Virus record (IMG/VR): IMGVR_UViG_3300012812_000001
DNA: 54,608 nucleotides
Source: a virus
Direction: 5' to 3' (one strand)
The position numbers were made by a program, and so were the translations under genes. Shown here piece after piece: positions 1-54,608 of this stretch (positions are counted from its first letter, which is position 1; every line of letters starts with the position of its first letter). The notes below the pieces were generated by a model that did not search any database, was not told the origin of the DNA, and was given only the letters and a program-made list of their open reading frames with translations.

Positions 1-123
1 CAGCCTGGATCGCGGCCGAGGCGGCCGCGATGATGCCGGGCTTCGGCTTTTTCTTTTCGGGAATGGTCCCGCCGTAAAAGAAGAGCGATGCCACGCCGCG
101 GAACCCGGGCGCACCCTCCGGGG
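1..123. repeat. Terminal overlap identical to 54486-54608 (circular closure of the contig)
   Basis: Read directly: the first 123 bases (cagcctggatcgcggccgag...gcaccctccgggg) recur verbatim as the last 123 bases. The repeat lies inside one continuous minus-strand reading frame. Confidence 0.95.
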
Positions 124-535
124 GGAGGCCGAACCGCGCCGCCATGTCGGACGGGATCACCTGATCCGCATGGCCGGGGAGCCAGGCCACAAGGCCGGAC
201 ACGCCACCGGCATGCTGATCGCCGCCGAAGAGTTCGGGCTCGTGGATCTTCAGGATCGCGGGGCCGCATGCGATATCGTCCCGCTCGCCCCATGGAGTCG
301 GCATGACCTCTTCGGGCGAGTTGAGCGCCTGCATGAGCCCAGGGATGCGCGGCAGAACGAAGTCGATATCGTCCTCGTCCTCCTCCGCGCCCGCCCTCGA
401 GGGCGGCCAGGCGATCTTGTCCTTCACACGGATCTCGACGAGCGCGTCCACCGGCCCGAGGCAGACGCCGCAATGCATCGACATATTGTAGTCGACAACC
501 TGACGCCCCGTTTTCTTGCTCTTGACCGCTGTCAT
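1..535 (-). CDS. Tail tip / host-specificity protein (lambda J-like), N-terminal ~178 codons; continues into 51955-54485 across the junction (about 1021 aa in total)
   Basis: Hand translation from ATG 535-533 gives MTAVKSKKTGRQVVDYNMSMHCGVCLGPVDALVEIRVKDKIAW...FGGDQHAGGVSGLVAW...GAPGFRGVASLFFYGGTIPEKKKPKPG. It runs without a stop into the 874-aa track ORF, whose M is an internal GTG. The ATG overlaps the upstream stop (ATGA). It is missing from the ORF track only because the window cuts it. Confidence 0.85.
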   Translation of the reverse strand, partial: MTAVKSKKTGRQVVDYNMSMHCGVCLGPVDALVEIRVKDKIAWPPSRAGAEEDEDDIDFVLPRIPGLMQALNSPEEVMPTPWGERDDIACGPAILKIHEPELFGGDQHAGGVSGLVAWLPGHADQVIPSDMAARFGLPPEGAPGFRGVASLFFYGGTIPEKKKPKPGIIAAASAAIQA

Positions 536-747
536 GGCCCCGTCTCCGTCCTGGATGCTTCCGCCTCGGCCAGATCGCAGACCCGGTTGGCAAGCCCGTC
601 ACTCAACCGGCGCAACTCCGAAACCGGCACGCCCTCCCCGATCCGGCGCCAGTCCAGCCCATGGGCCGCGCAGTAATCCTTGAAACCGCCTCGGCAAAAC
701 CTGGCCTCCCGGATATGCCGCATGTGAACGAGAATTTCTTCAGCCAT
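532..747 (-). CDS. Hypothetical 71-aa protein (MAEEILVHMRHIREARFCRGGFKDYCAAHGLDW...)
   Basis: The internal ATG at 747 overlaps the upstream stop (TGATG), and its own stop overlaps the J-like ATG (ATGA). Tight translational coupling inside the tail operon. No motif recognised. Confidence 0.5.
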   Translation of the reverse strand: MAEEILVHMRHIREARFCRGGFKDYCAAHGLDWRRIGEGVPVSELRRLSDGLANRVCDLAEAEASRTETGP

Positions 748-980
748 CAGGTTTTCGCTCCTTCCATCGGGACCTTCCGTCTCCGGAGGGATTTGTCGCC
801 AAACCAAAGGATGTTCGGGCTCGAGAAAATCTCGGAGCCAGCGAAATACGGGATCGCATTCACGCTATCGACCGTGGGCTCTTCCCATTCCTTGGGTTCT
901 TCCTCTTCCGGCCGCTTCGTGAATGCGGAGGAAAGGAGCGCGCCTACAATCGTCAGGCCGAGGCCGATCATCAATTCCAT
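747..980 (-). CDS. Small tail assembly protein resembling the C-terminal part of lambda gpI
   Basis: 77 aa with an N-terminal TM helix (MELMIGLGLTIVGALLSSAF), then ...VDSVNAIPYFAGSEIFSSPNILWFGD. This parallels the lambda gpI C-terminus (TM, then ...GNVLPVLYGEMRVGSRVV). It sits just upstream of the J-like gene. Confidence 0.5.
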   Translation of the reverse strand: MELMIGLGLTIVGALLSSAFTKRPEEEEPKEWEEPTVDSVNAIPYFAGSEIFSSPNILWFGDKSLRRRKVPMEGAKT

Positions 981-990
981 TGGGCAGGCC

Positions 991-1878
991 TCAACCGATG
1001 AATGATTTGTGAATGGGATATTCGAACGGAATCCATGGGAACCCGCCGAAATTCTGGATATTGCCGAAAACGTCGCCGCAACTCTCCATCGTGCGCCCGC
1101 AGCCCTTGGCCACGGTAATCCGGTCTCCGACAGAGAGGTCTGACGGGGTTGTATTCAGGCTGATCCGCAGACCAGGCTCGGTGAGGCTGATCAGGAAACG
1201 CTCGGCATTGACGACCTGCCCGATGCGATCGCTGTTATCGGGATGCCAGGTGGCGGTCCCTCCAACATAGAGCCGCGCGCTCTCCGTTGTGACGGCCCCA
1301 AGTGTCGGCCTGATCTCTACCTTCGCAATATGGGACCAGCTTCCATCGGGCTGCTCACCCTTTTGCAGGACGGATCTCACCGTGCCGACAAGGGTATGAT
1401 CCGCCTTCACGGCCTTGCAGGCTGGACCGTAAAGGACATGCGGGCAGGTGTGGGACCAGTTCCTGGTCAGGCCCTGCCTTCTCAAGGAGGATGTCAGCGG
1501 ATCCAGTGCGAGCTCGAGTTCGCCTGAGGCGTTGGCGGTCGAGGTGGCAACGATTCCGAGGAACAGCACCTTCGGTTCGCTGATACCGATGCCAGGGACG
1601 AGCTCCCCGACGATCAGCTCGACCTCGACGACCTCGGGGACATCGCGCAGCACGGTGCGGGCGGTCTCGCAATCCCGCGGAATGACGATCTTGATGCCGC
1701 TTTTCTCGACTGTGCCGTCGGCCTTGATCGACGGGTATGACAGCGGGGTCGCGGAATAGGTCATACCGTCATGGGAAATATCCCGCTCGGCCGAGGTAAT
1801 CCCGAGCTGACGATCGGAAAACCGGAAGCGCAGCAATGCCACCGGCCGACCTGAGATATATCCTTCTGCAATCGTCAT
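991..1878 (-). CDS. Minor tail protein, DUF2163 / BR0599 family (lambda L position)
   Basis: The C-terminal CGRTMESCGDVFGNIQNFGGFPWIP matches the Cys...Cys...NFGGFP signature of BR0599-type proteins of GTA-like and alphaproteobacterial siphophage tails. 4-nt overlap with the upstream gene. Confidence 0.75.
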   Translation of the reverse strand: MTIAEGYISGRPVALLRFRFSDRQLGITSAERDISHDGMTYSATPLSYPSIKADGTVEKSGIKIVIPRDCETARTVLRDVPEVVEVELIVGELVPGIGISEPKVLFLGIVATSTANASGELELALDPLTSSLRRQGLTRNWSHTCPHVLYGPACKAVKADHTLVGTVRSVLQKGEQPDGSWSHIAKVEIRPTLGAVTTESARLYVGGTATWHPDNSDRIGQVVNAERFLISLTEPGLRISLNTTPSDLSVGDRITVAKGCGRTMESCGDVFGNIQNFGGFPWIPFEYPIHKSFIG

Positions 1879-3131
1879 GCCCTGTATTCGACCAGCTCTC
1901 TCAATCTAATTTCACAGGAGATATGAATATCGGTCGAATAATCCAACACGACGGAATCGCTCGCGAGCCGCCATGCCGAAACATTTTTCACATCGGCTAT
2001 GCCGTTTATTGTGAAGTCCATTTCTGCAACCAGTGTTCCATCCGCCAGATGCGCGGAAATCAGATCGAACGCGACGACATCGCGGTTCGCCACAGTGGTG
2101 ATATCGACCGCCAGGCGCCGCGCGAAAACGCCATAGCTGCCGTCCTTGTTGCGGACGACGATCCGTTTCGGTCTACCCGTTCCCGTCTGGAATTGCCCTC
2201 GGTCCAGGCCCGTCGGGAACCGGAACTGCCAGTATGGCGTCAGGCTTCCAGGGGGCGAGATCGCCGCGAGAGACGGGAAATCCTGCACAGAGGAGAGGCA
2301 CCCGAAGGGGCTGAGCTGGCCTTGGGCGTAATCCAGGAAATCCAGCAGGGTGCCAGCCTGCTCCCGATCCATGGTCTGGATCTTCAGCGTGGCGATCCTT
2401 GCCCCTGCCCTTTCCCTGACCAGGTCCTGGCGGCGACCGATCTCGTAATCGATCGCATCGACGGCGCGCGAATAGGTGATCGACATGTCGTCGACCCAAT
2501 TGTGCGGCAACGGCAGGAGCGGGTATTCGGGCAGTCCCTGCCCTGAAGCCAGGTGGAAAGCATAGGACTGGTGGAGTTCCGGATCGAGGCCGGGGAGGCT
2601 CCTGGCGCGGAGATTGACGCGCAGGTAGCCACCAGGAAGCTCCGTGGTCTCGATTTCATCGTTGAGCGTCACGGCGGTGACGGTGACGATTTCACACCTC
2701 ACCGGGTCGAGCCCCGAGGGGAGGTCCCTGTCCAGGGTGACTGTCGCGCCATCCACGGCAGCGAGCATCGCCACGGCCTCGCGGCCTGCGGCGTTGATCT
2801 GGACGCGCATCCCCGCACCGAACCGGGCGGCCCGATCCAGGGTCAAAGTGCGACCGGCGGCGGAGAAGATCCACGCGGACGCTCGGAAGTCCTGCAGGTA
2901 TATTGGCTTGCCGATGTTGGCATCGAGGTAGCGCCGAACCCTGCCCGCCTCTGCCTCATTCCTCAGGGTCAGGTGCTCGAATTCGACGGTCATGCGCGGC
3001 GTCTGCCGCTCAGCCCATCGGTCTTCATAGCCGGAGCGGGACCGGTGAATCCCGGTCCGCCAGGCGTATTCGACGCGGGGGCGTTCGCCCCAGTTGCAGC
3101 GGAACGGGCTCGCGAGAATATCCATAATCAC
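1875..3131 (-). CDS. Distal/minor tail protein (lambda M position; DUF2460-like N-terminus)
   Basis: 418-aa ORF directly after the tape measure (overlap 3128-3131). The N-terminal ...RTGIHRSRSGYEDRWAERQTPR... resembles GTA g12-type distal tail proteins. The assignment rests mainly on synteny. Confidence 0.5.
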   Translation of the reverse strand: MIMDILASPFRCNWGERPRVEYAWRTGIHRSRSGYEDRWAERQTPRMTVEFEHLTLRNEAEAGRVRRYLDANIGKPIYLQDFRASAWIFSAAGRTLTLDRAARFGAGMRVQINAAGREAVAMLAAVDGATVTLDRDLPSGLDPVRCEIVTVTAVTLNDEIETTELPGGYLRVNLRARSLPGLDPELHQSYAFHLASGQGLPEYPLLPLPHNWVDDMSITYSRAVDAIDYEIGRRQDLVRERAGARIATLKIQTMDREQAGTLLDFLDYAQGQLSPFGCLSSVQDFPSLAAISPPGSLTPYWQFRFPTGLDRGQFQTGTGRPKRIVVRNKDGSYGVFARRLAVDITTVANRDVVAFDLISAHLADGTLVAEMDFTINGIADVKNVSAWRLASDSVVLDYSTDIHISCEIRLRELVEYRA

Positions 3132-6100
3132 CCCATCAAGGCTTTGAGCTGAGCGCCGTTCGCCGAGACAAAATTGAGGAAGGCGCGCTGACCGGCCGCT
3201 GTCGACAAGCCCTCCGAGAAGAAGGAAGCCGGGTCGAACGCGTTGACGATCTTGACGTCGCCCACTCCTCCATTACCGCCAGATGCCGCCCCATCCAGGG
3301 CGGCGCTGACACGCTTCGATCCTTCCTGCGCGGCGCGCAGGTTTGCCGAGAGGTTGTCGGCGTTCCGGCCGGAAATTCCTCCGGTGTGGTATTTCATGAC
3401 CCCTTTGCGGAGCATGGCGCCGATGGAATTGTTGCGATGGCGCGGGTCGTCCTCGGTCAGGACTTCCTCCCCCTTGAGCAGCAGGGACAGCCGCTCATTG
3501 GGCTTGGGGTTGAGTGCGCGCTGGAGGAAATCCTTCGCGGACATGCCCTTCATGTCGCCGGCGATGCCGCCGTCGTGATGGATACCACCGAGACCCTGCC
3601 CCGTCATCAGGCTGGTGATGACATTGCCGCCCGCGCTCCCCATCGGAGCGTGGATACCAAGAGCAGCCAGGACCATCCGCGCCACCACGGCTTTGACGAT
3701 CATCATGCCGATATCGACCAGGATCTGGCCGACAGCCGTTGCGACAGCACGTCCGAGAGATTTGAAGGCATTCTCGCCCGATGCGATATCCTGGGCAAAT
3801 TGCTGGATCGCACCGGAAATATGCCCGGTCAGCATGTCGCCGAAGCTCTGGATGCTGTCACGGTAGTCGGAAGCGGCGACGCCGCCGCGGTCGATTTCGT
3901 GCCGAAGATGCTCAAGCTCGGCTACGCGGTCACCGGCCTCGGGTCCGCCGATCGCCTGCCAGAAGGCGATTGCATTGCCGATCGCCCTCTCCAGCTCGCG
4001 ATTGACGTCATCGAGTTGGGAAACGATCCCGAGTTCGGCGTTGCGATCGCCATCCTCGCGGGCCTCCTCGAGGCGCGACATGAGGCGCTCACGCTCAGCC
4101 TGTCTGGAGGAGAGCTGCTGCTCGATCCGGTCCTGCTTGTCCTTCTCAAGCGTCGTCGCGGCCTCGATGCCATGCAGGCGCATGGCACGATCGACCTGGG
4201 CCTGCTTGTCGGCCTCGGACATCTTGACGCCGGAGCTCTCCTCACGCTTCCGGATATCCTCGAGGACCTGGGCGCGCGCGATCTCAGCCTCAACAGCACG
4301 GGCGCGATCGGCGTCTCCGCCACGCCTTGCGTCCTCGGCGGCCTTCGTCAGCTCCGCGATCTTGATGTCGAAATCCGCAGCGCGGAGGAGCTCGCCGTTC
4401 TCCTTGCCGAAATCCCTCTGCTTGTCCGCGTCTTTCTCGAGCTTGGTCCTGGCCTGCCTGGCCTTCTCGAGATCCGCCGCTTTCTCGACGGCAGACCTGA
4501 TCTCTGCCAGGGAGGCATCCTTGCTGAGGCCGGTCAGCTGCTCCAGGGAGTAGCCGCTCTCTCCCGCCTCGCGGCTGATCCGGTCGACCTCGGTCGCGAT
4601 CGCGCGCGCGAAAACCTCCGCATCAAGGAGATCCCTGGAAGAAAGCTCGCCCTTCACTGTCTCGAGCGACTTGTTGTAGTCGAGGACGGCCGTGGCGAGC
4701 TTGTCATCCTGTTTCAGAAGGATGTCACGGCGCGCAGCCTGGGCGAGATCGTCGGCGCTTTCCTTCAGGCCTGCCTCGCGGAAGCCCTGGATCACCCCCT
4801 CGATATTGCCGTCCTTCAACTCTTTCAGGAAAGTCGGGTTGGACAGGAGCTCGGGCGCCTGCAGCACACCCCCCTGCAGGCGGCGCATGGCCTCGTCGGC
4901 CATTTTCGGCGCCAGGGCCTCGACACGCTTGTAGATGTCGAGGGCTTCGGCGTTCGGGGTGATGGCGACAGCAGGATCGGCCTTCGTTCCGCGCGCGACG
5001 GCCGATGCGGCTTCGGTTGCCGCGATCGTGGCGATCTGGGTGGCCCGAGCCTCGATGCGGAAATCCGAGCCTGGGGCGAGGCCCTGCGAGCCGAACAAAT
5101 CGGCTTCGCGGCCACGGCGGGCATGAAGGACAGGGTTGAACTTGCCCTTGGCGGTATTGATGCCGTTGCGGAGACCATCCTGGGCTCCGGCATAGTCGCC
5201 AGTATTGAGCGGACGGAGAATCCCATCCGTGATTTTCCCGGTATTGAAGGCATACGAAAGCAAGGCCGTGTTCATGGCCTTGGTCAGCGGCACCTTGACC
5301 TTCTCGTCGATGATCCTCTGGAAGAGGGCGATGTCGCGGTCGAACTGCCCCCAGACCTGTTCATCGGTCAGTGTCATGCCTTCCTTCGGCTGGATACCTC
5401 CCGCAGCGCCGGTATGGCCAACCCCGATCGTCCACACCTTGCCTGCGGCATCCCAGTAGGCCTTGTTCCTGACCGCCTCTTCCTTCGCGAAGAAGGAGCG
5501 GACATCGGCATCACCCGCGGAGGAGATCATGCCCGCCTTGTCCAGGCCTGCGACGACATCTCCTCCGGATGCAATCTGAGACGCAATGACCTCAAGACGC
5601 GAGATCATGCCGTCGAGAGTGGTCTCGACCCCGGTGCCGAGATCGATCACCAACCCTTTCCCGGCGCGCTTCAGTTCATCCAGGGATTTCCGGTCAAGCT
5701 TGACGTTGACCCCCTGAGCATCGAGCATCCCCTCGATCGCATCGATCCTGGCCTGTTCCTCGGCCGCCCGGACCGTCTCGTCCAGCTGCTGGATGCGCGC
5801 GGCCTTCTCGCCGACCGACAGGTCGGTCAGGGCCTCGAGGTCCTCCCGTGCGGACTTGGCATCCTCGGAGATCTTCGCGAGCGTTTCCGACAGTTCATGG
5901 GCAATTCTGAACCGTCCGCCTTCCTTGTCGAGGCGGGCCATGGTGCCGAGTAGCTTGGCGTAGGTGGAGGCCAGGGATTTGGCTTCGCCGTCGGCCTGCG
6001 CCATGTTCGACGAAATCTGTTTGAAAATTCTCGTTTGGTCAGCACCGGTTGCATTGACCATCTGCTGATCAAGACGCAGTGCCTTGAGATTGACCGCTCG

Positions 6101-10232: not shown

Positions 10233-10262
10233 ACGGGACTCCTGATTTGATTTTCATATGAA

Positions 10263-17669: not shown

Positions 17670-17673
17670 CTGA

Positions 17674-46379: not shown

Positions 46380-46382
46380 GCA

Positions 46383-46850: not shown

Positions 46851-47149
46851 TTCGCAACCTCATCCTGATTGTTCGGCTCGACCTCCACCGTCCCGGAAAT
46901 CGCCCCCACCACCTTCGGCCGACCGGCCGGCGTCGTGGTCTTCGTCCGCAGCCAGAAATTCACGACCGCGACAAGGAGGGCGTAATGCGGCAGAAACTCA
47001 GGCGGGATCAGAGCTTGATATTGCGCCTGCGCCTCCACCTCCTGGACGGCCTGTGCGACCACGTCGAAAAGCGGCGGTCCTGCCGCGGTGACGTTGAAAA
47101 TCAGCGTGCGGAAGCCCTTCACGGCTCCCAGAATCCTGGTCAGGCGCAA
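46847..47149 (-). CDS. Small membrane protein following the endolysin gene
   Basis: 100 aa with one clear hydrophobic helix (LPHYALLVAVVNFWL). Overlaps both neighbouring genes. Confidence 0.4.
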   Translation of the reverse strand: MRLTRILGAVKGFRTLIFNVTAAGPPLFDVVAQAVQEVEAQAQYQALIPPEFLPHYALLVAVVNFWLRTKTTTPAGRPKVVGAISGTVEVEPNNQDEVAK

Positions 47150-47976: not shown

Positions 47977-48052
47977 GGGGCGAGCGCTCCTCAAGGGTAT
48001 CTTGAGTGATATGCGCTTATTTCTCGAAATTTCATCACATGAAAATTGGAAA

Positions 48053-49087
48053 TTAAAGCGATATCCTCATGCTGGGATCAGGAGATTCCAGGAAATCCGG
48101 TGGAAAATCGAAAAACACGGAGGTCGCTCCGCCGGGCGAGAGAGTCTGGGTTCGCACGGCCGACGAGGTCAGGTTCTCGAGGCGCAACGTTTGCGGCTCG
48201 ATGAAATCCTGGATATCGATTCCGGCCGAGAAATATGCTGACATCGCGCCCGACGTCTGTGGGAAAGTCATCTCTGCCGAGCCTGGTGAAATCGGGAAAT
48301 TCCCGCCCTCGAGTGGGTGGATCATTTCGGTGTCGACGATCCCGAAGGGTAGCGCCGGGGCATCAGGATGCTCCATGTCGAAGATGCACAGATTGATCAG
48401 GTCGTAACCACCGACGAGCTGAGGATGCCAGGACATGTGGCTGATCTTCGAATAGTCGACGCCAGCGGGTGCGCTGGCGGACATGTTGTGGATCCCCGAG
48501 GCAATCTGGACCCCATCGAGCCATACGGCATATTCAGCGACGGCGGGGTTGGTGACATCGAGATACATCTCGAAATGGCTGTCAGCGGCCGTGGTGATAT
48601 CTGTGATATCCGAGAGGGCCGTGCGGCTGAGGGCGGCGTGGTTGGCACCTGTTCCGGGCAAATAAGCCACCTGAATCCGGGGACCGGAGAACCCCTGAAG
48701 GGCAAGCGGAGAGGAGACAGCCACCGTCCCACCTGCGACACCGATCCGGCCAGGATGAATAAATCCGCAGAATCTTCCATATCCGGTAGAGGAAGCGGAT
48801 CCGATATTCGTTCCCACGGGACGCAGGCTGAAAGACGCCATCACCTTGCCTGTCGCCGGAAACTCGAAAATCACGGCATTCCGCAGATGCAGCTGCGCCG
48901 CATTACCCGACGGGATGGTCATGTGCAGCGACGGGGCTCCGTCGGGCCCCTTGTCAGACCTGGTCGCGGTGATATTGGCTGGAGCGCCAGTGACCTCGCC
49001 CGTTGTCTGGACGACATGCGGCGGCTTCGTTGCGGCCGACCCGTCGAAGCCCCAGAACCCCTCGGCGAAGACCAGCCCGTTACTCAT
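48053..49087 (-). CDS. Putative receptor-binding / tail fibre protein, paralogue 2
   Basis: From the internal ATG at 49087 (MSNGLVFAEGFWGFDG...). It shares landmarks with 49402-50472 (FAE.F.G start, SF.LRP.G, H.EM..DVT.PA....W..GV). The upstream 62 codons of the track ORF overlap the neighbouring gene. Confidence 0.55.
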   Translation of the reverse strand: MSNGLVFAEGFWGFDGSAATKPPHVVQTTGEVTGAPANITATRSDKGPDGAPSLHMTIPSGNAAQLHLRNAVIFEFPATGKVMASFSLRPVGTNIGSASSTGYGRFCGFIHPGRIGVAGGTVAVSSPLALQGFSGPRIQVAYLPGTGANHAALSRTALSDITDITTAADSHFEMYLDVTNPAVAEYAVWLDGVQIASGIHNMSASAPAGVDYSKISHMSWHPQLVGGYDLINLCIFDMEHPDAPALPFGIVDTEMIHPLEGGNFPISPGSAEMTFPQTSGAMSAYFSAGIDIQDFIEPQTLRLENLTSSAVRTQTLSPGGATSVFFDFPPDFLESPDPSMRISL

Positions 49088-49412
49088 CAGGCAGGACCCC
49101 GAGATCGAGATGGACGGATGCGACGCCAGGCTCCCCCGTCGGATAGGCGGAAACGCAAACCCCGACGGGATCCCCCTGCCCGACCGTGATCGCCCCGTCC
49201 ACGGCATGCAGAACCGTCCCGGTGAGAATCTCCGGGTGATCGACCCCCTCGGGAAGATTGACGGTCGTGCCAATCACGCCGCGCCGCAGGCACTTGAGCC
49301 CCTCTTGATGCTTGACGACAACCAGGACAGGGATGCCTTCAACAACCCGGAACTGCCCTTCCTTCACGCCCTCAACGAGGGGAGGTTCGATCCATTCGCT
49401 CTCAGCTGACAT
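49080..49412 (-). CDS. Hypothetical 110-aa protein between the two paralogues
   Basis: The ATG at 49412 overlaps the upstream stop by 11 nt, and its stop overlaps the downstream ATG by 8 nt. Confidence 0.45.
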   Translation of the reverse strand: MSAESEWIEPPLVEGVKEGQFRVVEGIPVLVVVKHQEGLKCLRRGVIGTTVNLPEGVDHPEILTGTVLHAVDGAITVGQGDPVGVCVSAYPTGEPGVASVHLDLGVLPDE

Positions 49413-50472
49413 CTTGCGCGATCTCCAGGGTCATGGCGTTGATATCCGCGTCCTCATGGGACTCGGTCGGCAGGAAGACGGTCGTCGCGAATGGCCGTGG
49501 CGCAATCTCGACGCTGGCCTCTTTCAGGGACCCACTATCGAAAACCCGCGCTTTCAGCCGCTCGGTATCGACGTGATCCTTGATGTCGAAGGTGAGACCG
49601 ATCAGCGAGCCGATCGCTGGCCGGGCATCCACAGCACGGTCGTCGAATTCGAAGCTCACGAACTGGTCGTCGATCAGTAGCCCAAGGTCGGGATCGATTT
49701 CCGGCTGCGCAAGGTTGCGATCGACGACGATCGACCCGATCCTGTCCCCTACATCGCCCCCGTCATAGATGATCAGGTCGCCCAGATGGGTAAAGTTGCC
49801 TGTCTGTGCGGCGATCGTAAGTCCGGAGACCGCGGACCGATCCAGACCGACAGGAAGCCCCGCAAGGTTATTGTCGGAGACATCGTCGACGACGAGGACG
49901 CCGTTGATCCATGCTTTTGAGCGGGTCTGCGCAGGGTCGGTCACGTCGATCTGCATCTCGATATGCATCAGACCACCCTCTGTGAAGGCGAGGCCACCCT
50001 GGTAGAGGACCACAGCGGACAAGGGCGTGGCACCGGCCGCATTGGTGACATGCCGCCCGAAGATCGGACGCCTGGCGGTATCGAAAGCAAAAAAGAGCGG
50101 GCAAGGATGGCAAGCCGTCACCACGCCGTCACTCACGGGAATCTGCCCATCCCAGAGGAAGCCAAGGGTGCGCGCGAAATAGGAGCTCGACGTCGGATTA
50201 CCATGGGCGGCGACGGTGCCGGACGGGCGCAGGTGAAAGCTCACCCCGACTTTCTTCAACGGAGCAAAGGACGCGACATGCGCCTCGGTTGCCCTACCTT
50301 GATCAGTGTAGGCTGTGCGCAGGCCGAGGCTCGCCCGGCCGCCAAAACCTTTCGTGCCGAATTCGGCATACTCGACGCCGCGACTGCCATTCCCGAACCG
50401 CTCGAATGATGGCGGCTGCTGATGGGGCACCGTGCACCCCTCGAAATCCTCGGCAAAGATGAACTTGACCAT
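49402..50472 (-). CDS. Putative receptor-binding / tail fibre protein, paralogue 1
   Basis: 356 aa, beta-rich, distantly similar to 48053-49087. It lies downstream of the DUF2793 fibre. Confidence 0.55.
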   Translation of the reverse strand: MVKFIFAEDFEGCTVPHQQPPSFERFGNGSRGVEYAEFGTKGFGGRASLGLRTAYTDQGRATEAHVASFAPLKKVGVSFHLRPSGTVAAHGNPTSSSYFARTLGFLWDGQIPVSDGVVTACHPCPLFFAFDTARRPIFGRHVTNAAGATPLSAVVLYQGGLAFTEGGLMHIEMQIDVTDPAQTRSKAWINGVLVVDDVSDNNLAGLPVGLDRSAVSGLTIAAQTGNFTHLGDLIIYDGGDVGDRIGSIVVDRNLAQPEIDPDLGLLIDDQFVSFEFDDRAVDARPAIGSLIGLTFDIKDHVDTERLKARVFDSGSLKEASVEIAPRPFATTVFLPTESHEDADINAMTLEIAQDVS

Positions 50473-50838
50473 TCAGGCCTCTCTTTTTCTTGCGATGACA
50501 ATCCCGGCTGATACGGCGTTCGCCGGCGGCGGACCCGACCAGATCGGCGTGATGATCGATGTTTGTGTCAGGGGGATCGACGCCGACGCATCCCGGCAGA
50601 TGGGGTGCCGGGAGATCTCAAGGAGGCGCGGAACGGCGGAGGATCTCTCGATCGCCAGCGCGTCAGCCGCGCGAAGTGTCGTGCTCTCTGCGGCTTGCCG
50701 GTAGATGGACATCACGGATGTGCCGATCATCCGCGGCGCCGCTTTCGTCTGCGCCAGGGCGATCAGGCTGACACCCGTCATGAGCAGGCCTTGCACGCTC
50801 ACCGGGCGCACGGCCAGGACACCCCACGGCACCATCAT
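50473..50838 (-). CDS. Hypothetical 121-aa protein with a hydrophobic N-terminus
   Basis: It exactly fills the gap between the neighbouring genes. Hand-read codons are mostly G/C-ending. Confidence 0.4.
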   Translation of the reverse strand: MMVPWGVLAVRPVSVQGLLMTGVSLIALAQTKAAPRMIGTSVMSIYRQAAESTTLRAADALAIERSSAVPRLLEISRHPICRDASASIPLTQTSIITPIWSGPPPANAVSAGIVIARKREA

Positions 50839-51908
50839 CAGGCAAGGTCCCCGACAAGCAGGAAGGCCCCGCCGCCAAGAGGCATGAGGGAGGCCGTCGA
50901 ATTGGCAACCCTGGTCTTCATTTTCCCATCCACGGAATGGATGTTGACCTGCGCCGTCGCTACGAATTCCACCTGGCCCTCACCGCCCTGCCAGACCGTC
51001 AGTGGACGTCCATCAAGGCTGAAAGGGACAGTCAGCTGGACAGGATCCTCCGCTTCGACTCGGATGACCTTTCCGCCCTCCATGTCGTCATTCGTCAGCT
51101 GCCGACCGGCGGTGATCGTCGAGACACGATAGAGATCGTCGTAATCCTCGCGCAGCGTCAGAACATCCGCTTCCAGCCCGGAAATTCCCGTCTGCGCCGT
51201 GGAAAGCCCTGTCCCGATTTGCACGACCTCGTCGCCAAGGTCATTCACTTCCGCATTGAGTTGCCCCATCTGGGTGCCAAGAGTTTCCGTCTCTGAAAGG
51301 GCATTGGCGGCTGTCGTCTCGACTGCGTCGAGACGATCATCGAAGCCCGAGACGACCGTGATCAGGGATTCCACCTGGCCGGAGACGGTGCCCAGGTCGG
51401 CGGTCAGGGAGGCGATGGATTGCGTGGCTGTCTCAAGCTCGCCGGAGACGGCGCCGACATCGGCCTGGAGCGTCGCGACCGCGTCCGATGCGGCACCCGC
51501 AGCAGAGGCGACATCGGACAGTTGCCCGCTGATAGCGTCGACGCTGCTCCCCAGGTTCTCGACAGCCGTCACCAGGGAGGGCAGCTGGTCGGAAATCCAC
51601 TCCGACCCGGTCCAGCTGAAGATCCCGCCCGCCGCAACAACCCAGGCCCGCATGCCAGGATAGACTGGCACATATTGCCAGGCGCCAGCATCGCGCGCGG
51701 CGATCTTCCCGGCATCGGGGCCAGCGGTCATGATATACATGGCTCGTTCGGCCGGTGTCGTCGGCAGGGTCGCGACCATGTCCTCCACGACCGGCCAGGC
51801 ATGGACGGAAAGGCGCAGGAGGTTGGCATCCATCCCGGCGTTCCATCCGTCCTGTCCGTAATCCCAGAAGCCGGTCAGTCCGGCGCCGGGGAGGGTCCTT
51901 TCAGCCAT
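50838..51908 (-). CDS. Tail fibre protein with a DUF2793 N-terminal domain and a coiled-coil shaft
   Basis: ...YIMTAGPDAGKIAARDAGAWQYVPVYPGMRAWVVAAGGIFSWTGSEW... fits DUF2793. It is followed by heptad-like Ala/Ser/Thr/Leu repeats. Confidence 0.65.
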   Translation of the reverse strand: MAERTLPGAGLTGFWDYGQDGWNAGMDANLLRLSVHAWPVVEDMVATLPTTPAERAMYIMTAGPDAGKIAARDAGAWQYVPVYPGMRAWVVAAGGIFSWTGSEWISDQLPSLVTAVENLGSSVDAISGQLSDVASAAGAASDAVATLQADVGAVSGELETATQSIASLTADLGTVSGQVESLITVVSGFDDRLDAVETTAANALSETETLGTQMGQLNAEVNDLGDEVVQIGTGLSTAQTGISGLEADVLTLREDYDDLYRVSTITAGRQLTNDDMEGGKVIRVEAEDPVQLTVPFSLDGRPLTVWQGGEGQVEFVATAQVNIHSVDGKMKTRVANSTASLMPLGGGAFLLVGDLA

Positions 51909-51954
51909 GGGCCATCCTCACAATTTTAAGGGATATATTGCTTGAAATGTGAAA

Positions 51955-54608
51955 TTACAACGAAGCGGAACCACCGTAATACATGCCGTAATCCTGGCCG
52001 TATCCGGTCGGATTGCGGACCTCGATGCCCAGCATGTGGTTCTGCTGACTCTCGGCCGCGATCCGGTCGCTGCGGACGGCGACGCCATTGACCATGTCCA
52101 TCTCGTAGAGGCGGGAACCTACCTCCAGCAGGTAGGCAGTGATGTCGTCGCGATCCGAGCCGGGCTTATCCAGCCGCACACCGAACAGCGTGCCCTGAAG
52201 GGCAAACCCGCCAGAGATGGCCTCCTCTTCGTGCAGGAGTTCCATCTCGGTGTAGGGCGTGCGAACGGATCCCGTCGCCAGCTCTGGAGGCGTGGTCACA
52301 TGGACACGGCGCCAGACCCGGATGAAGTTGACCTGACCTCCTTCCGGTGCGATCGCGTCATCGTCCCATGCAGCGGCAGCGGCGTCCTCATAGCGCCTGT
52401 TGCGCGATTTGAAGGTCACAGACACCCCGGAAGGCTCCGACAGGAGCACAACTTTCCCGAACCGCACCGAGCCTGGCCCAAGAGGACTGCCGCCCGCGAC
52501 ATCCATCCGGACCCCCGCCGGGCGGATCGGTCTTTGCGTCCGATAGCCGCACACAGCCACTCCCGCTCCAAACCAGGCGACCGCCTTGCCGTTAGCGTTT
52601 TCTGGGCGTTGGATAATCCGGACACCACCGAAATTCTGGGCGAAGGCGGGATCTGCCGTGGAGTCGATCAATCCGAGCGGCGCCGGGAGAGCACCCCTCT
52701 CTATATAATAGACCCTGTCATCCACGGAGATCGGCGCGGGTGTGGTGTCATATGCACCGCGCGAGACGGTTACAGTCTGCCCGTCGATCGAGACGATCCG
52801 CATCCATTCCTCGGGGTAGACATAGTCGACGCCATTCCTGTCAGATCCAACTCTCCACCCTGCCCCACCGTCAAACACGACCGATGCGGCGCTTGCCATG
52901 GCGTTCGTAAACTCTCGCCGCCGCCCTGCCTCATGCCAGGAGGGGGCAGTCCCGTCGGGGAGGATGATCTCACCATGGAGTTCGAGCGCCTCCGGGGCTT
53001 TCGCGCGCATATGGCCAAACCCGGAATAGAGATGGACGGGGGCTCCTGTCTGCGCATCATAGCGCAGACCAGGGCCGTTCTGACCTGCGGGCTCGTTCAC
53101 CAGCTGAGAGCGGAGATGCGCCGTGCGCGACACCAGAAGGTAGTCGCCGGCCGAGAAGTCCGGCGCATTGATACCGAAATCGATCCCCGTAATGTCGATC
53201 GTGCTGATTGCCTCGGCTGGCAACGCCACCATCATCCTGCCGGAGGGCGTGGTTTCGACGGTGCCCGCCTCTTCGTAATCGAGATAACCGGTGCCGACTC
53301 CCTTGGCGATAGCCATCCTCTCCATCCTGTCGGGGGATCCGGCAAAGAAGAGCGGAACAGCCTCGCCGGTGTCGTCGAGGCTGACGATATCGGAAATCTC
53401 GGTGCCGGCCGCCGCGATGACGCCAAAGGGGGCGGGCGTGTAGAATGTCGGGAAAATCCTGGATGGCGGGGACTCCCGGCGCCAACGGGATGACGACATG
53501 GCTTCCGACACCTGCACGCCGACCTGCGCGTCGGAGAAGACGTCGTCGACGGCGGTCACGCGGACCCTTTGGTCTGACAGCTTACCGTAATCGATCGGGA
53601 ACAGCCTGGCACGCATCACCAGGTCCTCTTCGGGCCAGCGCACGGTCACGACATCGAAAGGCTTCAGCTTGAGCCCCTCTCTGCCGATGATGAAATCCGC
53701 AGCCGCCACAGGCTTCGAGCGGGTCTTGAGCTCGCGCTTGGCCACGGAAACGGCGACGGATTCCTTGCGCAACCCGTCAAGCCGCAGCTCGCCAGAGACC
53801 AGGCCGCCCCGGATCGATATCCCGGCATCATTCTGGACGGAGACGCTTTTCGACTGGCCCTTCAGCGTCGAGGTCCATTTCGCGACCATGGCGTTGACAG
53901 TGTCTCCCCAGGTCTGGCGGCGCAGCTCGACCAGATCGGCATTGTCGGGCGTGATGGTGATGTCCGGACGGTAGCAATCCGTGGCATCCGGCCCGTATTC
54001 CCCGCTGTCCGGGATCTTCCCGCCTCCGACAGACCGGTAAAGCCGCAACTCCGCATCCGATCGCAGCAGCCGCACCCCCCATTTGCCGCTATCCGGATCG
54101 AGATAGAGACCGCCGCCGATGTGGTCGCAGATCTTTCCTGCGAAGGCGCGCCCCGTGGTCTTGGTGTCCCATGTCAGGGTGATGCCGAGCTTCTCGCGCG
54201 ACAGGACGCGGGCCGCGCGGATGAAGGAGTGCAGATCGACCCTGTCTTCCGGCATCGCGATACCGAGCATCCGGCTGGTCAGGACCTCGTAGAGCATGGC
54301 GGCCGGGTTTGCCTGCGGCAGATACCCCTCGTCCTCACCGATCATCAAAACCTGGCGTTCGTCCTCAGAGACATTCGGCGGGAGCTCGCGCGCCAGGGCG
54401 AAGGCCCGCGGCCGACGGATCATCTTGAAGCTCATCGGGGGGAGCCGGGGATCGTTCTGCCCCCATAGAAAGCCCCTCCCGGAAACAGCCTGGATCGCGG
54501 CCGAGGCGGCCGCGATGATGCCGGGCTTCGGCTTTTTCTTTTCGGGAATGGTCCCGCCGTAAAAGAAGAGCGATGCCACGCCGCGGAACCCGGGCGCACC
54601 CTCCGGGG
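51955..54608 (-). CDS. Tail tip / host-specificity protein (J-like), C-terminal ~843 codons; the N-terminus is at 1-535
   Basis: The track ORF 51955-54579 starts at an internal GTG, and the frame stays open to the window end and across the junction. ...AAMLYEVLTSRMLGIAMPEDRVDLHSFIRAARV... parallels lambda J. Confidence 0.85.
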   Translation of the reverse strand, partial: PEGAPGFRGVASLFFYGGTIPEKKKPKPGIIAAASAAIQAVSGRGFLWGQNDPRLPPMSFKMIRRPRAFALARELPPNVSEDERQVLMIGEDEGYLPQANPAAMLYEVLTSRMLGIAMPEDRVDLHSFIRAARVLSREKLGITLTWDTKTTGRAFAGKICDHIGGGLYLDPDSGKWGVRLLRSDAELRLYRSVGGGKIPDSGEYGPDATDCYRPDITITPDNADLVELRRQTWGDTVNAMVAKWTSTLKGQSKSVSVQNDAGISIRGGLVSGELRLDGLRKESVAVSVAKRELKTRSKPVAAADFIIGREGLKLKPFDVVTVRWPEEDLVMRARLFPIDYGKLSDQRVRVTAVDDVFSDAQVGVQVSEAMSSSRWRRESPPSRIFPTFYTPAPFGVIAAAGTEISDIVSLDDTGEAVPLFFAGSPDRMERMAIAKGVGTGYLDYEEAGTVETTPSGRMMVALPAEAISTIDITGIDFGINAPDFSAGDYLLVSRTAHLRSQLVNEPAGQNGPGLRYDAQTGAPVHLYSGFGHMRAKAPEALELHGEIILPDGTAPSWHEAGRRREFTNAMASAASVVFDGGAGWRVGSDRNGVDYVYPEEWMRIVSIDGQTVTVSRGAYDTTPAPISVDDRVYYIERGALPAPLGLIDSTADPAFAQNFGGVRIIQRPENANGKAVAWFGAGVAVCGYRTQRPIRPAGVRMDVAGGSPLGPGSVRFGKVVLLSEPSGVSVTFKSRNRRYEDAAAAAWDDDAIAPEGGQVNFIRVWRRVHVTTPPELATGSVRTPYTEMELLHEEEAISGGFALQGTLFGVRLDKPGSDRDDITAYLLEVGSRLYEMDMVNGVAVRSDRIAAESQQNHMLGIEVRNPTGYGQDYGMYYGGSASL
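54486..54608. repeat. Terminal overlap identical to 1-123
   Basis: Same 123-base string as the window start. Confidence 0.95.

What the first reader, a model, noticed from the sequence alone, without database searches (positions are those of the whole stretch)
1..54608. Lambda-syntenic siphovirus that also carries a full plasmid maintenance set and a second, phage-type replication module
Seen in one circle:
- a gene-for-gene lambda morphogenesis order (Nu1, A, W, B, C, D, E, Fi, FII, Z, U, V, G/T, H, M, L, I, J positions)
- an iteron RepA origin (37387-38803)
- parA plus a small partner (21844-22801)
- a tyrosine recombinase suited to multimer resolution (44093-45103)
- a separate PolA / RuvC / DUF2815 SSB / primase-helicase set (23869-30612)

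It is established that phage-plasmids such as P1 separate plasmid and lytic replicons. The inference is that this element does the same, on a lambda-type chassis and in a probable alphaproteobacterial host, where few phage-plasmids are described.
Basis: partly seen in the sequence, partly recalled or inferred. Interest (0 to 1): 0.65.

Follow-up and report, generated by a model that had tools for sequence, protein, structure and literature searches.

The report
Chi-like phage kept as a plasmid
This 54.5-kb circle is a tailed temperate phage of the Chi/DSS3-P1 type in which the usual integrase has been replaced by an alphaproteobacterial plasmid replication-and-partition set. It is most likely carried as a plasmid rather than inserted in the chromosome, a known lifestyle seen here in a phage lineage where I found no earlier example.

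Summary
The window closes into a circle of 54,485 bp, and an independent assembly crosses the junction.

- **Lineage.** The virion module shares lambda's head genes (A, W, B, C, D, E, Z families). The tail tip does not. As a whole the element is collinear with the integrase-bearing (presumed temperate) Ruegeria phage DSS3-P1 (Casjensviridae, Chi-like), including the PolA / primase-helicase replication genes.
- **The swap.** Where DSS3-P1 and related contigs carry an integrase, between repressor and AlpA/terminase, this element carries parA plus a small RHH-type partner.
- **The plasmid origin.** A Rep_3 initiator with eight iterons, a perfect DnaA box and an AT-rich tract lies 15 kb away. Rep and ParA are 55-65% identical to those of ordinary alphaproteobacterial plasmids.
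- **A second member.** One other contig (portal 57% identical) has parA-parB-AAA-repA contiguous at the integrase site.
- **Rarity.** None of 34 related viral contigs has this cassette.
- **The recombinase.** The gene at 44093-45103 is a real but divergent tyrosine recombinase. Its role, resolvase or integrase, is open.

Verdict: a credible phage-plasmid, a new variant of a known kind, by a route already shown in mycobacteriophages. Function is inferred, not shown.

The parts
1..123 (.). Assembly overlap, identical to 54486-54608. It marks a circular (or circularly joined) molecule of 54,485 bp.
   Evidence: Exact 123-bp terminal repeat. An independent Logan contig crosses the junction with one copy.
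19797..20600 (-). Small terminase subunit (Nu1 position, but DUF1441-type rather than the Nu1 family).
   Evidence: phrog_141 7e-29. PF07278 at 33 bits, below its cut-off. 41% identical to DSS3P1_62.
17674..19800 (-). Large terminase subunit, lambda gpA type.
   Evidence: GpA_ATPase 8e-46 and GpA_nuclease 1e-58. phrog_15 2e-157.
17439..17738 (-). gpW-type head-tail adaptor.
   Evidence: PF02831 1e-11. phrog_75.
15763..17439 (-). Portal, lambda B family.
   Evidence: PF05136 on its own cluster. 31.5% identical to lambda B, 2e-74. 48% to DSS3-P1, 57% to L018.
12990..15693 (-). S49 prohead protease (14491-15693), head decoration protein (14084-14473) and major capsid protein of the E family (12990-14060).
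   Evidence: Peptidase_S49 3e-33, HDPD 1e-8, Phage_cap_E 3e-26.
9535..12938 (-). Two small connector-position genes with no family match (12657-12938, 12253-12660). Then gpZ-like tail completion (11666-12253), tail terminator (11151-11669), major tail protein (10297-11070), and the tail chaperone pair (9777-10232, plus an overlapping -1 frame open to 9535).
   Evidence: Minor_tail_Z 25.6 bits, phrog_5078 6e-40, phrog_807 1e-35, Pre_tape_measure 1e-18. Frame layout. No canonical slippery heptamer was found.
3128..9538 (-). Tape measure protein, 2136 aa, with an internal lysozyme domain.
   Evidence: TMP_3 7e-25 and Phage_lysozyme 1e-19. phrog_2335 4e-118.
747..3131 (-). Tail-tip genes that are not lambda M/L/K/I: distal tail protein (1875-3131), BR0599 / phiJL001-gp84-type hub (991-1878) and a small tail protein (747-980).
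   Evidence: phrog_1082, phrog_778, phrog_1180. PF09356 6e-13. Collinear with DSS3P1_45-47.
47140..54579 (-). Central tail protein with a Phage-tail_3 domain (51955-54579), fibre-like genes (48053-51908, one with DUF2793) and a GH108 endolysin (47140-47994).
   Evidence: Syntenic with L035.
46137..47149 (-). Three small genes after the endolysin, probably holin/spanin. Assigned by position only.
   Evidence: No family match. Homologs lie in the same place in L035.
44093..45103 (-). Divergent tyrosine recombinase (R179, K204, Y268-x-x-R271, H293, Y302). Role unresolved: multimer resolvase or integrase.
   Evidence: 677 homologs. Invariant catalytic residues. Profile matches XerA at 4.6e-8. AF2 pLDDT 92, and Foldseek finds XerA, IntI4 and lambda Int.
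20841..21059 (-). AlpA-family small DNA-binding protein, kept upstream of the terminase as in the integrase-bearing relatives.
   Evidence: PF05930 4e-7. 51% identical to L018, 33% to DSS3P1_63.
21844..22855 (-). Type Ib-like partition pair. ParA is 22130-22801 (longest ORF runs to 22855). The 97-aa ribbon-helix-helix-like partner is 21844-22137. The pair lies at the locus where relatives carry the integrase.
   Evidence: VirC1 8e-23, CbiA, phrog_164 2e-33, ParA_partition 3e-31. KGGAGKT motif. RHH_10 E = 0.003. ParA 57-65% and partner 38-46% identical to the parA-parB of plasmids.
23053..23082 (.). AT-rich perfect palindrome (13-bp arms, 4-bp spacer) between the repressor gene and parA. Candidate par operator or centromere (inferred).
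   Evidence: Related plasmids also have palindromes or repeat arrays upstream of parA.
23117..23830 (-). HTH repressor-like protein, homolog of the DSS3-P1 'repressor' of the repressor/integrase tandem.
   Evidence: phrog_4 and phrog_2967 about 3e-5, HTH_3 weak. 24% identical to DSS3P1_65, 33% to L018.
23869..30612 (.). Phage replication module. On the minus strand: RuvC-like resolvase (23869-24432), family-A-like DNA polymerase (24435-26381) and gp2.5/Enc34-like SSB (26378-27061). On the plus strand: primase-helicase with a VapE domain (27787-30612).
   Evidence: PolA is 39% identical and the primase-helicase 31% identical to DSS3-P1, in the same divergent layout.
36700..37888 (+). Plasmid-type origin. 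It holds an AT-rich tract (36700-36870) and a perfect DnaA box (37518-37526). It holds eight iterons GAAAAACGAGGwwTCTGGGG: four in tandem at 21-bp spacing (37608-37685), two just before the repA start (37824, 37865), one at 37391, and one inverted at 37773.
   Evidence: A homologous layout (AT-rich tract, five iterons GTGAGGwwTCTGGGG, TTATCCACA) lies upstream of repA in L018. Iterons at 21-22-bp spacing occur in related plasmids.
37889..38803 (+). Rep_3-family replication initiator (WH1 + WH2).
   Evidence: Rep3_C 4e-16 and Rep3_N 4e-6, both above cut-off. 49-65% identical to the initiators of alphaproteobacterial plasmids.
39747..41671 (+). AAA+ ATPase gene (40249-41352, Lon-like ATPase module) flanked by two direct copies of a ~286-bp array of CACCTACTAG motifs in both orientations (39747-40032 and 41386-41671). 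Candidate centromere or regulatory arrays (inferred).
   Evidence: The motif occurs nowhere else in the window. The AAA+ homolog in L018 lies between parB and repA.
32464..36035 (.). Cargo: Y-family (DinB/UmuC-like) polymerase (32464-34167, +), NaeI-like restriction endonuclease (34201-35091, -) and C5 cytosine methyltransferase (35088-36035, -).
   Evidence: IMS 8e-35, NaeI 7e-54, DNA_methylase 7e-73. GCCGGC sites: 17 observed against 42.5 expected.

Best explanation
The window is the complete circular genome of a temperate siphovirus of the Chi-like / DSS3-P1-like lineage that lives as a phage-plasmid.

Shown by sequence and comparison:
- It has a full, uninterrupted set of packaging, head, tail and lysis genes.
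- It has the lineage's own replication genes (family-A-like polymerase, SSB, RuvC-like nuclease, primase-helicase).
- It has a repressor-like gene.
- In place of the lineage's integrase it carries a plasmid partition pair. Elsewhere it carries a Rep_3 initiator with an iteron/DnaA-box origin, taken from alphaproteobacterial plasmids.

Inferred mechanism:
1. In the lysogen the repressor keeps the lytic genes off.
2. RepA binds the four tandem iterons and, with host DnaA at the adjacent box, opens the AT-rich tract for low-copy theta replication by the host replisome.
3. The two iterons just before the repA start let RepA repress its own gene. Iteron handcuffing limits copy number.
4. ParA, a deviant Walker ATPase, and the small RHH partner segregate the copies through a centromere. 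Candidates for that centromere are the palindrome upstream of parA or the CACCTACTAG arrays.
5. The tyrosine recombinase probably resolves plasmid multimers.
6. After induction, the phage primase-helicase and polymerase take over to make substrate for the gpA-type terminase, which cuts and packages DNA into lambda-type heads.
For: - Circle.
- Complete virion and lysis set.
- Collinearity with DSS3-P1, including repressor, PolA and primase-helicase.
- Integrase at the syntenic site in DSS3-P1, L024 and L026, and in 11 of 34 related IMG/VR contigs. None of the 34 has ParA or RepA.
- No DSS3-P1-type integrase in the window.
- Rep_3 initiator, iterons and DnaA box.
- The same parA-parB-repA set is the backbone of ordinary plasmids of cultured Alphaproteobacteria.
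- An independent second element (L018) has parA-RHH-AAA-Rep3 between repressor and AlpA/terminase, with a homologous origin.
- A single Logan contig spans both the phage and the plasmid genes at uniform depth.
- Precedent for an integrase-to-parABS(+RepA) swap at a collinear locus, with proven plasmid replication, in cluster A mycobacteriophages: PMC7157519.
Against: - There is no functional or read-level evidence. Only assembled contigs of three small metagenome runs were available.
- The host, and therefore the copy number relative to the chromosome, is unknown. Other contigs in the runs lie at 5-8x and at 113-136x, against 11-14x for the element.
- A circular contig can also come from a replicating or cos-joined lytic genome.
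- A tyrosine recombinase is present. Its distant relatives (26-30% identity) lie at the ends of predicted prophage contigs, so integration is not excluded.
- The plasmid cassette is split here: parAB at 22 kb, repA at 38 kb, AAA+ at 40 kb. It is contiguous in L018 and in plasmids. I have no evidence that the split version works.
- The centromere is not identified.
- Use of the two replication sets in different life-cycle phases is by analogy only.
Confidence: 0.75

Rival explanations
1. It is an integrating temperate phage. The divergent tyrosine recombinase at 44093-45103 is its integrase. The circular contig is the excised or replicating form, and Rep/Par are accessory genes or a backup.
For: The recombinase has a complete catalytic set and a Xer/Int-like fold. 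Distant homologs lie within about 1 kb of the ends of IMG/VR prophage-type contigs. A 43%-identical homolog occupies the same post-lysis position in another phage contig, L035.
Against: - It lacks an arm-binding N-terminal domain of the kind seen in the lineage's integrases.
- It is not at the lineage's integrase locus, which parAB occupies.
- No tRNA or att-like repeat lies next to it. The ARAGORN tRNA call is a false positive.
- No chromosome junction appears in the three runs.
- A complete iteron replicon plus a partition pair is hard to explain as mere cargo.
Confidence: 0.1
2. It is a lytic or pseudolysogenic Chi-like phage caught while replicating. The Rep/Par genes only prolong a carrier state and do not give true plasmid lysogeny.
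For: Chi-like genomes without par/rep are deposited as circular 'plasmids' of cultured Marinobacter (phiTHAF39) and Enterobacter (pTO42E). So episomal persistence occurs in this group without plasmid genes. 23 of 34 related viral contigs have neither an integrase nor par upstream of the terminase.
Against: The element keeps the repressor-like gene of the integrase-bearing (presumed temperate) branch. It has a regulated iteron origin with autorepression sites and a DnaA box. It also has a partition pair and a restriction-modification pair, which are features of stable low-copy plasmids.
Confidence: 0.08
3. It is a defective phage-plasmid: a plasmid that still carries phage genes but no longer forms infectious particles.
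For: Nothing here tests particle formation. The tail-chaperone frameshift site could not be found. About 600 bp between the small tail gene and the central tail protein (about 124-746) has no convincing gene.
Against: All large structural genes are full-length and collinear with a plaque-forming phage, DSS3-P1. No stop-interrupted genes were seen in the module.
Confidence: 0.05
4. It is an assembly chimera of a phage and a plasmid from the same sample.
For: The source is a short-read metagenome, and the element contains an internal repeat that breaks assemblies.
Against: One Logan contig of 52.7 kb carries parAB, repA and all the phage genes without a break. Depth is uniform in two runs. An independent relative from another sample has the same combination.
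Confidence: 0.02

Closest known systems
Ruegeria phage DSS3-P1 (KM581061; Casjensviridae, Chi-like; presumed-temperate roseophage) and related integrase-bearing contigs
   Same: - Same gene order from AlpA and the small terminase through the gpA terminase, gpW, portal, S49 protease, decoration and capsid proteins, tail shaft, long tape measure with a lysozyme domain, BR0599-type hub and central tail protein.
- Same repressor-like gene.
- Same PolA, and a divergently transcribed VapE primase-helicase.
- 20 proteins match at 24-48% identity.
   Different: DSS3-P1 has a tyrosine integrase with an arm-binding domain between repressor and AlpA. The window has parA-parB there and no such integrase. 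DSS3-P1 has no Rep_3 initiator, iterons, AAA+ gene or YxxR recombinase. The accessory regions are unrelated, and there is no nucleotide-level similarity.
Logan contig SRR21606534_11905 (locus L018, 50.9 kb), an undescribed metagenomic relative
   Same: It is the closest relative: portal 57%, TerL 55%, ParA 65%, RepA 63% identical. It has the same repressor / RuvC-like / AlpA / terminase neighbourhood and the same origin design, with iterons differing by two bases and a TTATCCACA box.
   Different: Its parA-RHH-AAA-repA cassette is contiguous at the integrase locus. In the window repA and the AAA+ gene lie 15-18 kb from parAB, and the AAA+ gene is flanked by repeat arrays. Only 13 kb of that contig could be read.
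Rep_3 / ParAB plasmids of Alphaproteobacteria, e.g. Thioclava sp. GXIMD4216 p5 and Limimaricola, Paracoccus and Methylobacterium plasmids (RepA/RepB-type replicons of Rhodobacterales; PMC9025767)
   Same: Initiator 49-65% and ParA 43-65% identical. There is a small partner gene after parA, iterons at 21-22-bp spacing before repA, and repeat arrays upstream of parA.
   Different: These plasmids share no phage gene with the window within 10 kb, or in p5 anywhere on the plasmid. They have no AAA+ homolog. I did not resolve which compatibility group the window's Rep belongs to.
Cluster A mycobacteriophages with parABS (RedRock, Miko, Jeeves; PMC7157519)
   Same: Same evolutionary move: the integration cassette is replaced by a partition cassette at the collinear position. 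In a subset a plasmid-type RepA is necessary and sufficient for extrachromosomal prophage replication.
   Different: The phage lineage, host phylum and proteins are unrelated. Function there was proven by experiment; here it is inferred.
Phage P1 (prototype phage-plasmid)
   Same: The logic is the same: an iteron-binding RepA plasmid origin with partition genes, a separate means of lytic replication, and a tyrosine recombinase (Cre) that resolves dimers. This rests on established knowledge of P1, not on a test here.
   Different: No homology of the virion genes: P1 is a myovirus. P1's lytic replicon is oriL/RepL, not a polymerase plus primase-helicase set. The window fits none of the ten typed phage-plasmid groups listed in PMC12977533.
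Phage lambda
   Same: Homologous A, W, B, C, D, E and Z families in lambda's order.
   Different: There are no Nu1, FI, FII, U, V, G/T, M, L, K or I family matches. The tail tip, replication, recombination and lysogeny modules all differ.

Membership tests
Phage-plasmid (functional class, as in PMC7969092 and PMC12977533) | Full set of phage packaging, capsid, tail and lysis genes | tested here: met
   Collinear with plaque-forming DSS3-P1.
Phage-plasmid (functional class) | Plasmid-type replication initiator with its origin | tested here: met
   Rep3_N/Rep3_C above cut-off, eight iterons, DnaA box, AT-rich tract.
Phage-plasmid (functional class) | Partition system | tested here: met
   ParA with KGGAGKT plus a small partner, 57-65% and 38-46% identical to plasmid pairs. 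Centromere not identified.
Phage-plasmid (functional class) | Extrachromosomal in the lysogen, not integrated | tested here: inconclusive
   Circular in two independent assemblies with no chromosome junction, and no lineage-type integrase. However, only contigs were available, and a tyrosine recombinase of unknown role is present.
Phage-plasmid (functional class) | Shown to form virions and to replicate as a plasmid | not testable with these tools
   Needs an isolate, induction, and cloning of the origin.
Lambda-type morphogenesis module | Homologs of A, W, B, C, D, E in that order | tested here: met
   Pfam families above cut-off, portal PF05136, tblastn to lambda B, C and E.
Lambda-type morphogenesis module | Homologs of Nu1, FI, FII, U, V, G/T | tested here: not met
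   TerS is DUF1441-type, below cut-off. The FI/FII positions have no match. U and V have PHROG functions only. G is Pre_tape_measure. gpZ is met at 25.6 bits.
Lambda-type morphogenesis module | Tail tip M, L, K, I, J | tested here: not met
   BR0599 / phiJL001-gp84 hub and unrelated neighbours. Only a Phage-tail_3 domain is shared with J.
Casjensviridae / Chi-like phages (DSS3-P1 group) | Shared collinear structural and replication gene set | tested here: met
   20 collinear protein matches at 24-48% identity. Taxonomy of DSS3-P1 from the record. 'Closely related to Chivirus' per PMC9437464.
Casjensviridae / Chi-like phages (DSS3-P1 group) | Formal family or genus thresholds (proteome or nucleotide similarity as used by ICTV) | not tested
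   No megablast similarity to any deposited phage. No proteome-wide clustering tool was available.
Rep_3 iteron replicon | Two winged-helix domains (WH1 + WH2) | tested here: met
   PF01051 27.8 bits and PF21205 59.4 bits.
Rep_3 iteron replicon | Tandem iterons of about 19-22 bp next to the rep gene, with a DnaA box and an AT-rich tract | tested here: met
   Conserved in L018 and in plasmids.
Type Ib partition system | Small Walker-type ParA without an N-terminal DNA-binding domain | tested here: met
   223 aa, with Walker A at residues 10-16. ParA_partition 3e-31.
Type Ib partition system | Ribbon-helix-helix centromere-binding partner and a repeat centromere | tested here: inconclusive
   RHH_10 E = 0.003, below cut-off. 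The C-terminal strand-helix-helix pattern was judged by eye. Candidate sites only.
Tyrosine recombinase superfamily | Catalytic R-K-H/Y-R-H/W-Y residues and the Xer/Int catalytic fold | tested here: met
   R179, K204, Y268, R271, H293 and Y302 are invariant in 45 homologs. XerA 4.6e-8. Foldseek probability 1.00 to XerA.
Plasmid multimer-resolution recombinase (Cre/Xer-like role) | A cognate site on the element and resolution activity | not testable with these tools
   No lox/dif-like site with 11-14-bp arms and a 6-8-bp spacer was found in the intergenic DNA near the gene.

The most novel reading that the evidence does not exclude
This element and its one known relative may found a new phage-plasmid type. 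It would have been created when a parA-parB-AAA-repA cassette from alphaproteobacterial plasmids replaced the integrase of a Chi-like temperate siphovirus.

The cassette would carry two parts not seen in the donor plasmids. The first is a dedicated Lon-like AAA+ ATPase that acts on the replicon, for example by remodelling RepA or loading the helicase. The second is a pair of centromere-like CACCTACTAG arrays. A YxxR tyrosine recombinase, conserved after the lysis genes, would serve as the resolvase.
Probability: 0.3. Interest if true: 0.6.

Novelty: new variant of a known kind. Interest (0 to 1): 0.45.

Why it matters
Phage-plasmids are well typed mainly in Enterobacterales. Few are described in Alphaproteobacteria, and I found none on a Chi-like (Casjensviridae) chassis.

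This element, with its integrase-bearing and plasmid relatives, gives a clean three-way comparison: integrating phage, ordinary plasmid, and hybrid. It shows which block was exchanged and where. It therefore documents the route from temperate phage to phage-plasmid in a second, unrelated phage lineage, after the mycobacteriophages.

If the origin works, the 2-kb ori-repA fragment with parAB would be a compact low-copy replicon for Rhodobacterales-like hosts. The element also carries a restriction-modification pair and an error-prone polymerase, cargo that a transmissible plasmid-phage could spread.

It does not reveal a new principle.

Tried and rejected
- **Nucleotide similarity.** Megablast of 1-25000, 25001-50000 and 21000-45900 against deposited phages and plasmids found nothing.
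- **IMG/VR search with TerL alone.** No relatives. A portal alignment worked instead.
- **ARAGORN tRNA-His at 43200-43288.** Rejected: odd ATG anticodon, 89 nt long, no Rfam tRNA match. It therefore gives no hint of an att site.
- **Site for the recombinase.** I found no lox/dif-like inverted repeat in the intergenic DNA near the gene.
- **TTCGCATGCGAA motif.** It occurs near the recombinase gene and the origin, but enrichment is not convincing: 8 observed against 3.7 expected, and 2 of 100 shuffles reach 8.
- **Single-sequence searches of the PDB.** Nothing for the recombinase, repressor, RepA or PolA. Only the profile of recombinase homologs worked.
- **AlphaFold on the AAA+ protein.** Without an alignment the model had pLDDT 39.6 and was discarded.
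- **Relatives of the AAA+ protein in IMG/VR.** None.
- **Reaching the rest of the L018 contig.** A homolog search with the primase-helicase failed: no close homolog exists besides the window's own protein.
- **Copy number.** It could not be estimated because the host contigs are unknown.
- **Two plasmid records with related portals** (Marinobacter phiTHAF39, Enterobacter pTO42E). These are Chi-like phage genomes with no par/rep among the genes listed for the regions read.
- **Chimeric assembly.** Considered and rejected.

Full report
WHAT THE WINDOW IS

The first and last 123 bases are identical, so the unique sequence is 54,485 bp. The window is held at 100% of sampled words in two public runs labelled mosquito metagenome, and partly in a third.

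In one run a single 52,722-bp Logan contig runs from 41,639 through the window's end into its start and on to about 39.8 kb, with the 123-bp repeat present once. A 1,565-bp contig fills 40,000-41,564. Depth is flat: 14.2x and 14x in one run, 11.3-12.1x and 10.4x in the other. The only break is at an internal repeat (see below). No contig joins the element to other DNA. The 'loose ends' are 18-24-nt chance matches.

The circle is therefore real as an assembly result and is not a chimera. Contigs cannot distinguish a plasmid from a replicating or cos-joined phage genome.

THE VIRION MODULE

PHROG and Pfam scans give the following genes on the minus strand:
- small terminase (19797-20600)
- gpA-type large terminase (17674-19800)
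- gpW adaptor, lambda-family portal, S49 protease, decoration protein D and capsid protein E
- two small genes with no family match
- gpZ-like tail completion, tail terminator and major tail protein
- a chaperone pair with an overlapping -1 frame
- a 2136-aa tape measure with a lysozyme domain
- three tail-tip genes, one of them a BR0599 / phiJL001-gp84-type hub

Across the junction the module continues with an 874-aa central tail protein carrying a Phage-tail_3 domain, fibre-like genes, a GH108 endolysin and three small genes.

Lambda's own families reach Pfam's cut-offs only for A, W, B, C, D, E and Z. Direct tblastn against lambda finds B, C and E. The Nu1, FI, FII, U, V, G/T, M, L, K and I families are not matched. 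It is wrong for the tail tip.

THE TRUE LINEAGE

The portal's nearest named relative (48% identity) is Ruegeria phage DSS3-P1, classified in Casjensviridae. A published comparison calls DSS3-P1 and its kin close relatives of the flagellotropic Chi-like phages. [quoted passage not shown]

Twenty window proteins match DSS3-P1 in the same order at 24-48% identity. The matches include the HTH repressor-like gene, the polymerase (39%) and the divergently transcribed VapE primase-helicase (31%). The 'second, phage-type replication module' is therefore simply this lineage's normal replication module.

Support for the individual replication proteins is uneven:
- primase-helicase: strong
- polymerase: strong by PHROG and by homology, weak in Pfam
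- RuvC-like nuclease: weak
- gp2.5/Enc34(DUF2815)-like SSB: weak

THE SWAP

In DSS3-P1, a second isolate genome (MH015254) and two related metagenomic contigs (L024, L026), a tyrosine integrase with an arm-binding domain lies next to the AlpA-like gene, on the side away from the small terminase. The repressor lies just beyond it in DSS3-P1, MH015254 and L024. L026 is visibly integrated next to chromosomal genes.

In the window that position holds parA (22130-22801, KGGAGKT, 223 aa) and a 97-aa partner with a ribbon-helix-helix-like C-terminus, followed by a phosphoesterase. The lineage's integrases find nothing in the window.

I sampled 80 IMG/VR contigs related by portal. Of these, 34 have at least 5.5 kb upstream of the portal. 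Eleven of the 34 have an integrase there, 23 have neither integrase nor par, and none has a ParA or RepA homolog.

THE PLASMID REPLICON

The gene at 37889-38803 encodes a Rep_3 initiator, with WH1 and WH2 both above cut-off. Upstream lie:
- an AT-rich tract (36700-36870)
- the only perfect DnaA box in the window (37518)
- eight copies of GAAAAACGAGGwwTCTGGGG: four in tandem at exactly 21-bp spacing, two directly before the start codon, one 200 bp upstream and one inverted

With at most one mismatch the iteron core occurs nowhere else in the window.

The initiator is 49-65% identical to those of plasmids or plasmid-like contigs of Tranquillimonas, Oceaniglobus, Limimaricola, Thioclava, Pukyongiella, Paracoccus, Acidibrevibacterium, Methylobacterium and others. 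In most of these loci parA lies directly upstream of repA, and in the closest relatives the small partner gene lies between them. Iterons at 21-22-bp spacing precede repA in the plasmids where I looked. Within the 10 kb read on each side, these loci share no phage gene with the window. Thioclava p5 is a closed 45-kb plasmid of a cultured strain with no phage genes at all. No deposited phage genome has a close homolog of this initiator.

A SECOND MEMBER

The closest portal (57%) lies on a 50.9-kb Logan contig from another sample (L018). There the order is: RuvC-like, repressor, a 136-aa gene, ParA (65%), RHH partner, AAA ATPase, Rep3 (63%), a small gene, AlpA, small terminase, gpA terminase, gpW, portal.

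Its origin has an AT-rich tract, five iterons GTGAGGwwTCTGGGG and TTATCCACA. This is the same design as the window's, with a two-base change in the iteron.

The hybrid is therefore a small lineage and not a one-off. In L018 the plasmid cassette sits entire at the integrase site. In the window repA and the AAA+ gene have been moved 15-18 kb away, into the accessory region beyond the primase-helicase.

THE RECOMBINASE

On its own, 44093-45103 matches Phage_integrase only at E = 0.06 and matches nothing in PHROGs, NCBIfam or the PDB. An exhaustive HMMER search found 677 homologs.

In 45 of them R179, K204, Y268, R271, H293 and Y302 are invariant or nearly so. The profile matches XerA (4.6e-8), IntI4, XerC-like, XerD and XerH. 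An AlphaFold model (pLDDT 92) is matched by Foldseek to XerA, IntI4 and lambda integrase. It is a tyrosine recombinase with Tyr in place of the usual first His of HxxR.

Its role is open.
- A 43%-identical homolog sits in the same place, after the GH108 endolysin and lysis genes, in another related phage contig.
- An 87%-identical copy elsewhere is cut by a transposase fragment.
- Homologs at 26-30% identity lie at the ends of prophage-type viral contigs.

I found no target-like site and no tRNA next to it.

HOW IT MOST LIKELY WORKS

Shown: the gene content, the origin anatomy, the position of the swap, and the independence of the two replication sets in relatives.

Inferred:
- In the lysogen RepA, host DnaA and the host replisome replicate the circle at low copy. 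RepA represses itself at the two promoter-proximal iterons.
- ParA and its partner segregate the copies.
- The recombinase resolves multimers.
- After induction the phage primase-helicase and polymerase amplify the DNA for the gpA terminase.

This is the logic of P1, and of the parABS/RepA cluster A mycobacteriophages. In those phages the same integrase-to-partition replacement at a collinear site is documented, and RepA was shown to be necessary and sufficient for plasmid replication (PMC7157519). I put 0.75 on the phage-plasmid reading, and less, about 0.6, on the strict division of labour between the two replication sets.

RIVALS

In order of weight:
1. An integrating phage that uses the odd recombinase (0.10).
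2. A carrier-state lytic phage (0.08). Chi-like genomes lacking par/rep are in fact deposited as 'plasmids' of Marinobacter and Enterobacter.
3. A defective element (0.05).
4. An assembly chimera (0.02).

HOST

Every close relative of Rep, ParA, the portal and the tail-tip genes comes from Alphaproteobacteria or their phages. G+C is about 60%. The species is unknown. The sample label is mosquito metagenome.

NOVELTY

Phage-plasmids are an established class, and the route that made this one is known. The ten typed groups are P1, N15, SSU5-related, AB and cp32 (PMC12977533). The alphaproteobacterial examples I found in the literature are pLM21S1/RHEph10 (PMC7969092) and untyped metagenomic predictions (PMC11652158 and PMC13221032). 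I found no Casjensviridae-like phage-plasmid in the literature searches, in the deposited phage and plasmid records or in the IMG/VR sample. I rate it a new variant of a known kind, of moderate interest.

Noticed in passing
39747-40032 and 41386-41671, flanking 40249-41352: Two direct copies of a ~286-bp structured array flank an AAA+ ATPase gene. Each has 52-nt inverted arms 182 nt apart and is packed with CACCTACTAG motifs in both orientations. The motif occurs nowhere else in the window. The arrays are what breaks the Logan assemblies. The motif resembles the GTAGG-type repeats upstream of parA in related plasmids, so the arrays may be centromeres.
   Followed up: partly
40249-41352; L018 3034-4383: The AAA+ ATPase (Lon-like ATPase module without a protease domain) is shared only with the other phage-plasmid, at 32-39% identity. 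There it lies between parB and repA and is preceded by an inverted iteron. It is absent from all the ordinary plasmid relatives and from IMG/VR. It could be a replicon accessory factor, such as a RepA remodeller or helicase loader. The single-sequence structure model failed.
   Followed up: partly
34201-36035 and the whole window: The element carries a NaeI-like endonuclease and a C5 methyltransferase, with gene ends overlapping. The NaeI site GCCGGC is under-represented in the element: 17 observed against 42.5 +/- 7.7 expected, and all 100 shuffles have at least 17.
   Followed up: partly
32464-34167: A Y-family (DinB/UmuC-like) translesion polymerase with a 175-residue N-terminal extension. 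It is preceded by a small ORF (32217-32519) with no family match.
   Followed up: no
23053-23082: ATATTACCATACA-GATT-TGTATGGTAATAT is the only AT-rich perfect palindrome in the window (77% A+T in a 60% G+C genome). It lies between the repressor gene and parA.
   Followed up: partly
20841-21059: An AlpA-family gene, often an excisionase-type regulator, is kept upstream of the terminase in both phage-plasmids although the integrase is gone. Its role here is therefore probably not excision.
   Followed up: no
21215-21775; L034 1749-2303; L038 10928-11392: The phosphoesterase gene that follows parB in the window lies directly next to homologs of the YxxR tyrosine recombinase in two other contigs. 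The two genes are 22 kb apart in the window.
   Followed up: no
L051 (ENA ERZ1030146, 3.3 kb): An 87%-identical copy of the recombinase gene lacks its 5' part and abuts a DDE transposase fragment. A homolog of the window's 43640-44065 gene follows, after one intervening gene.
   Followed up: partly
43200-43288: ARAGORN calls an 89-nt tRNA-His with anticodon ATG. Rfam finds no tRNA, and the stretch lies inside ORF 42970-43623. I treat it as a false positive.
   Followed up: yes
L027 (NZ_CP045368.1) and L053 (NZ_CP139333.1): Marinobacter 'plasmid phiTHAF39' (56 kb) and Enterobacter 'plasmid pTO42E' (64 kb) are Chi-like phage genomes filed as circular plasmids of cultured strains. The genes listed for the regions I read include no par or rep genes. 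This suggests episomal carriage is common in this phage group.
   Followed up: partly
about 124-746: About 600 bp between the small tail gene (747-980) and the start of the central tail protein (54579, equivalent to position 94 on the circle) has no convincing gene. The plus-strand ORF 170-676 scores poorly and matches no family. Relatives have a ~69-aa gene here.
   Followed up: no
9535-10232: The tail chaperone gene is followed by an overlapping -1 frame that stays open to 9535. Its end matches a DSS3-P1 tail protein at 46% identity, as expected for a G/T-type frameshift product. I found no canonical slippery heptamer.
   Followed up: partly
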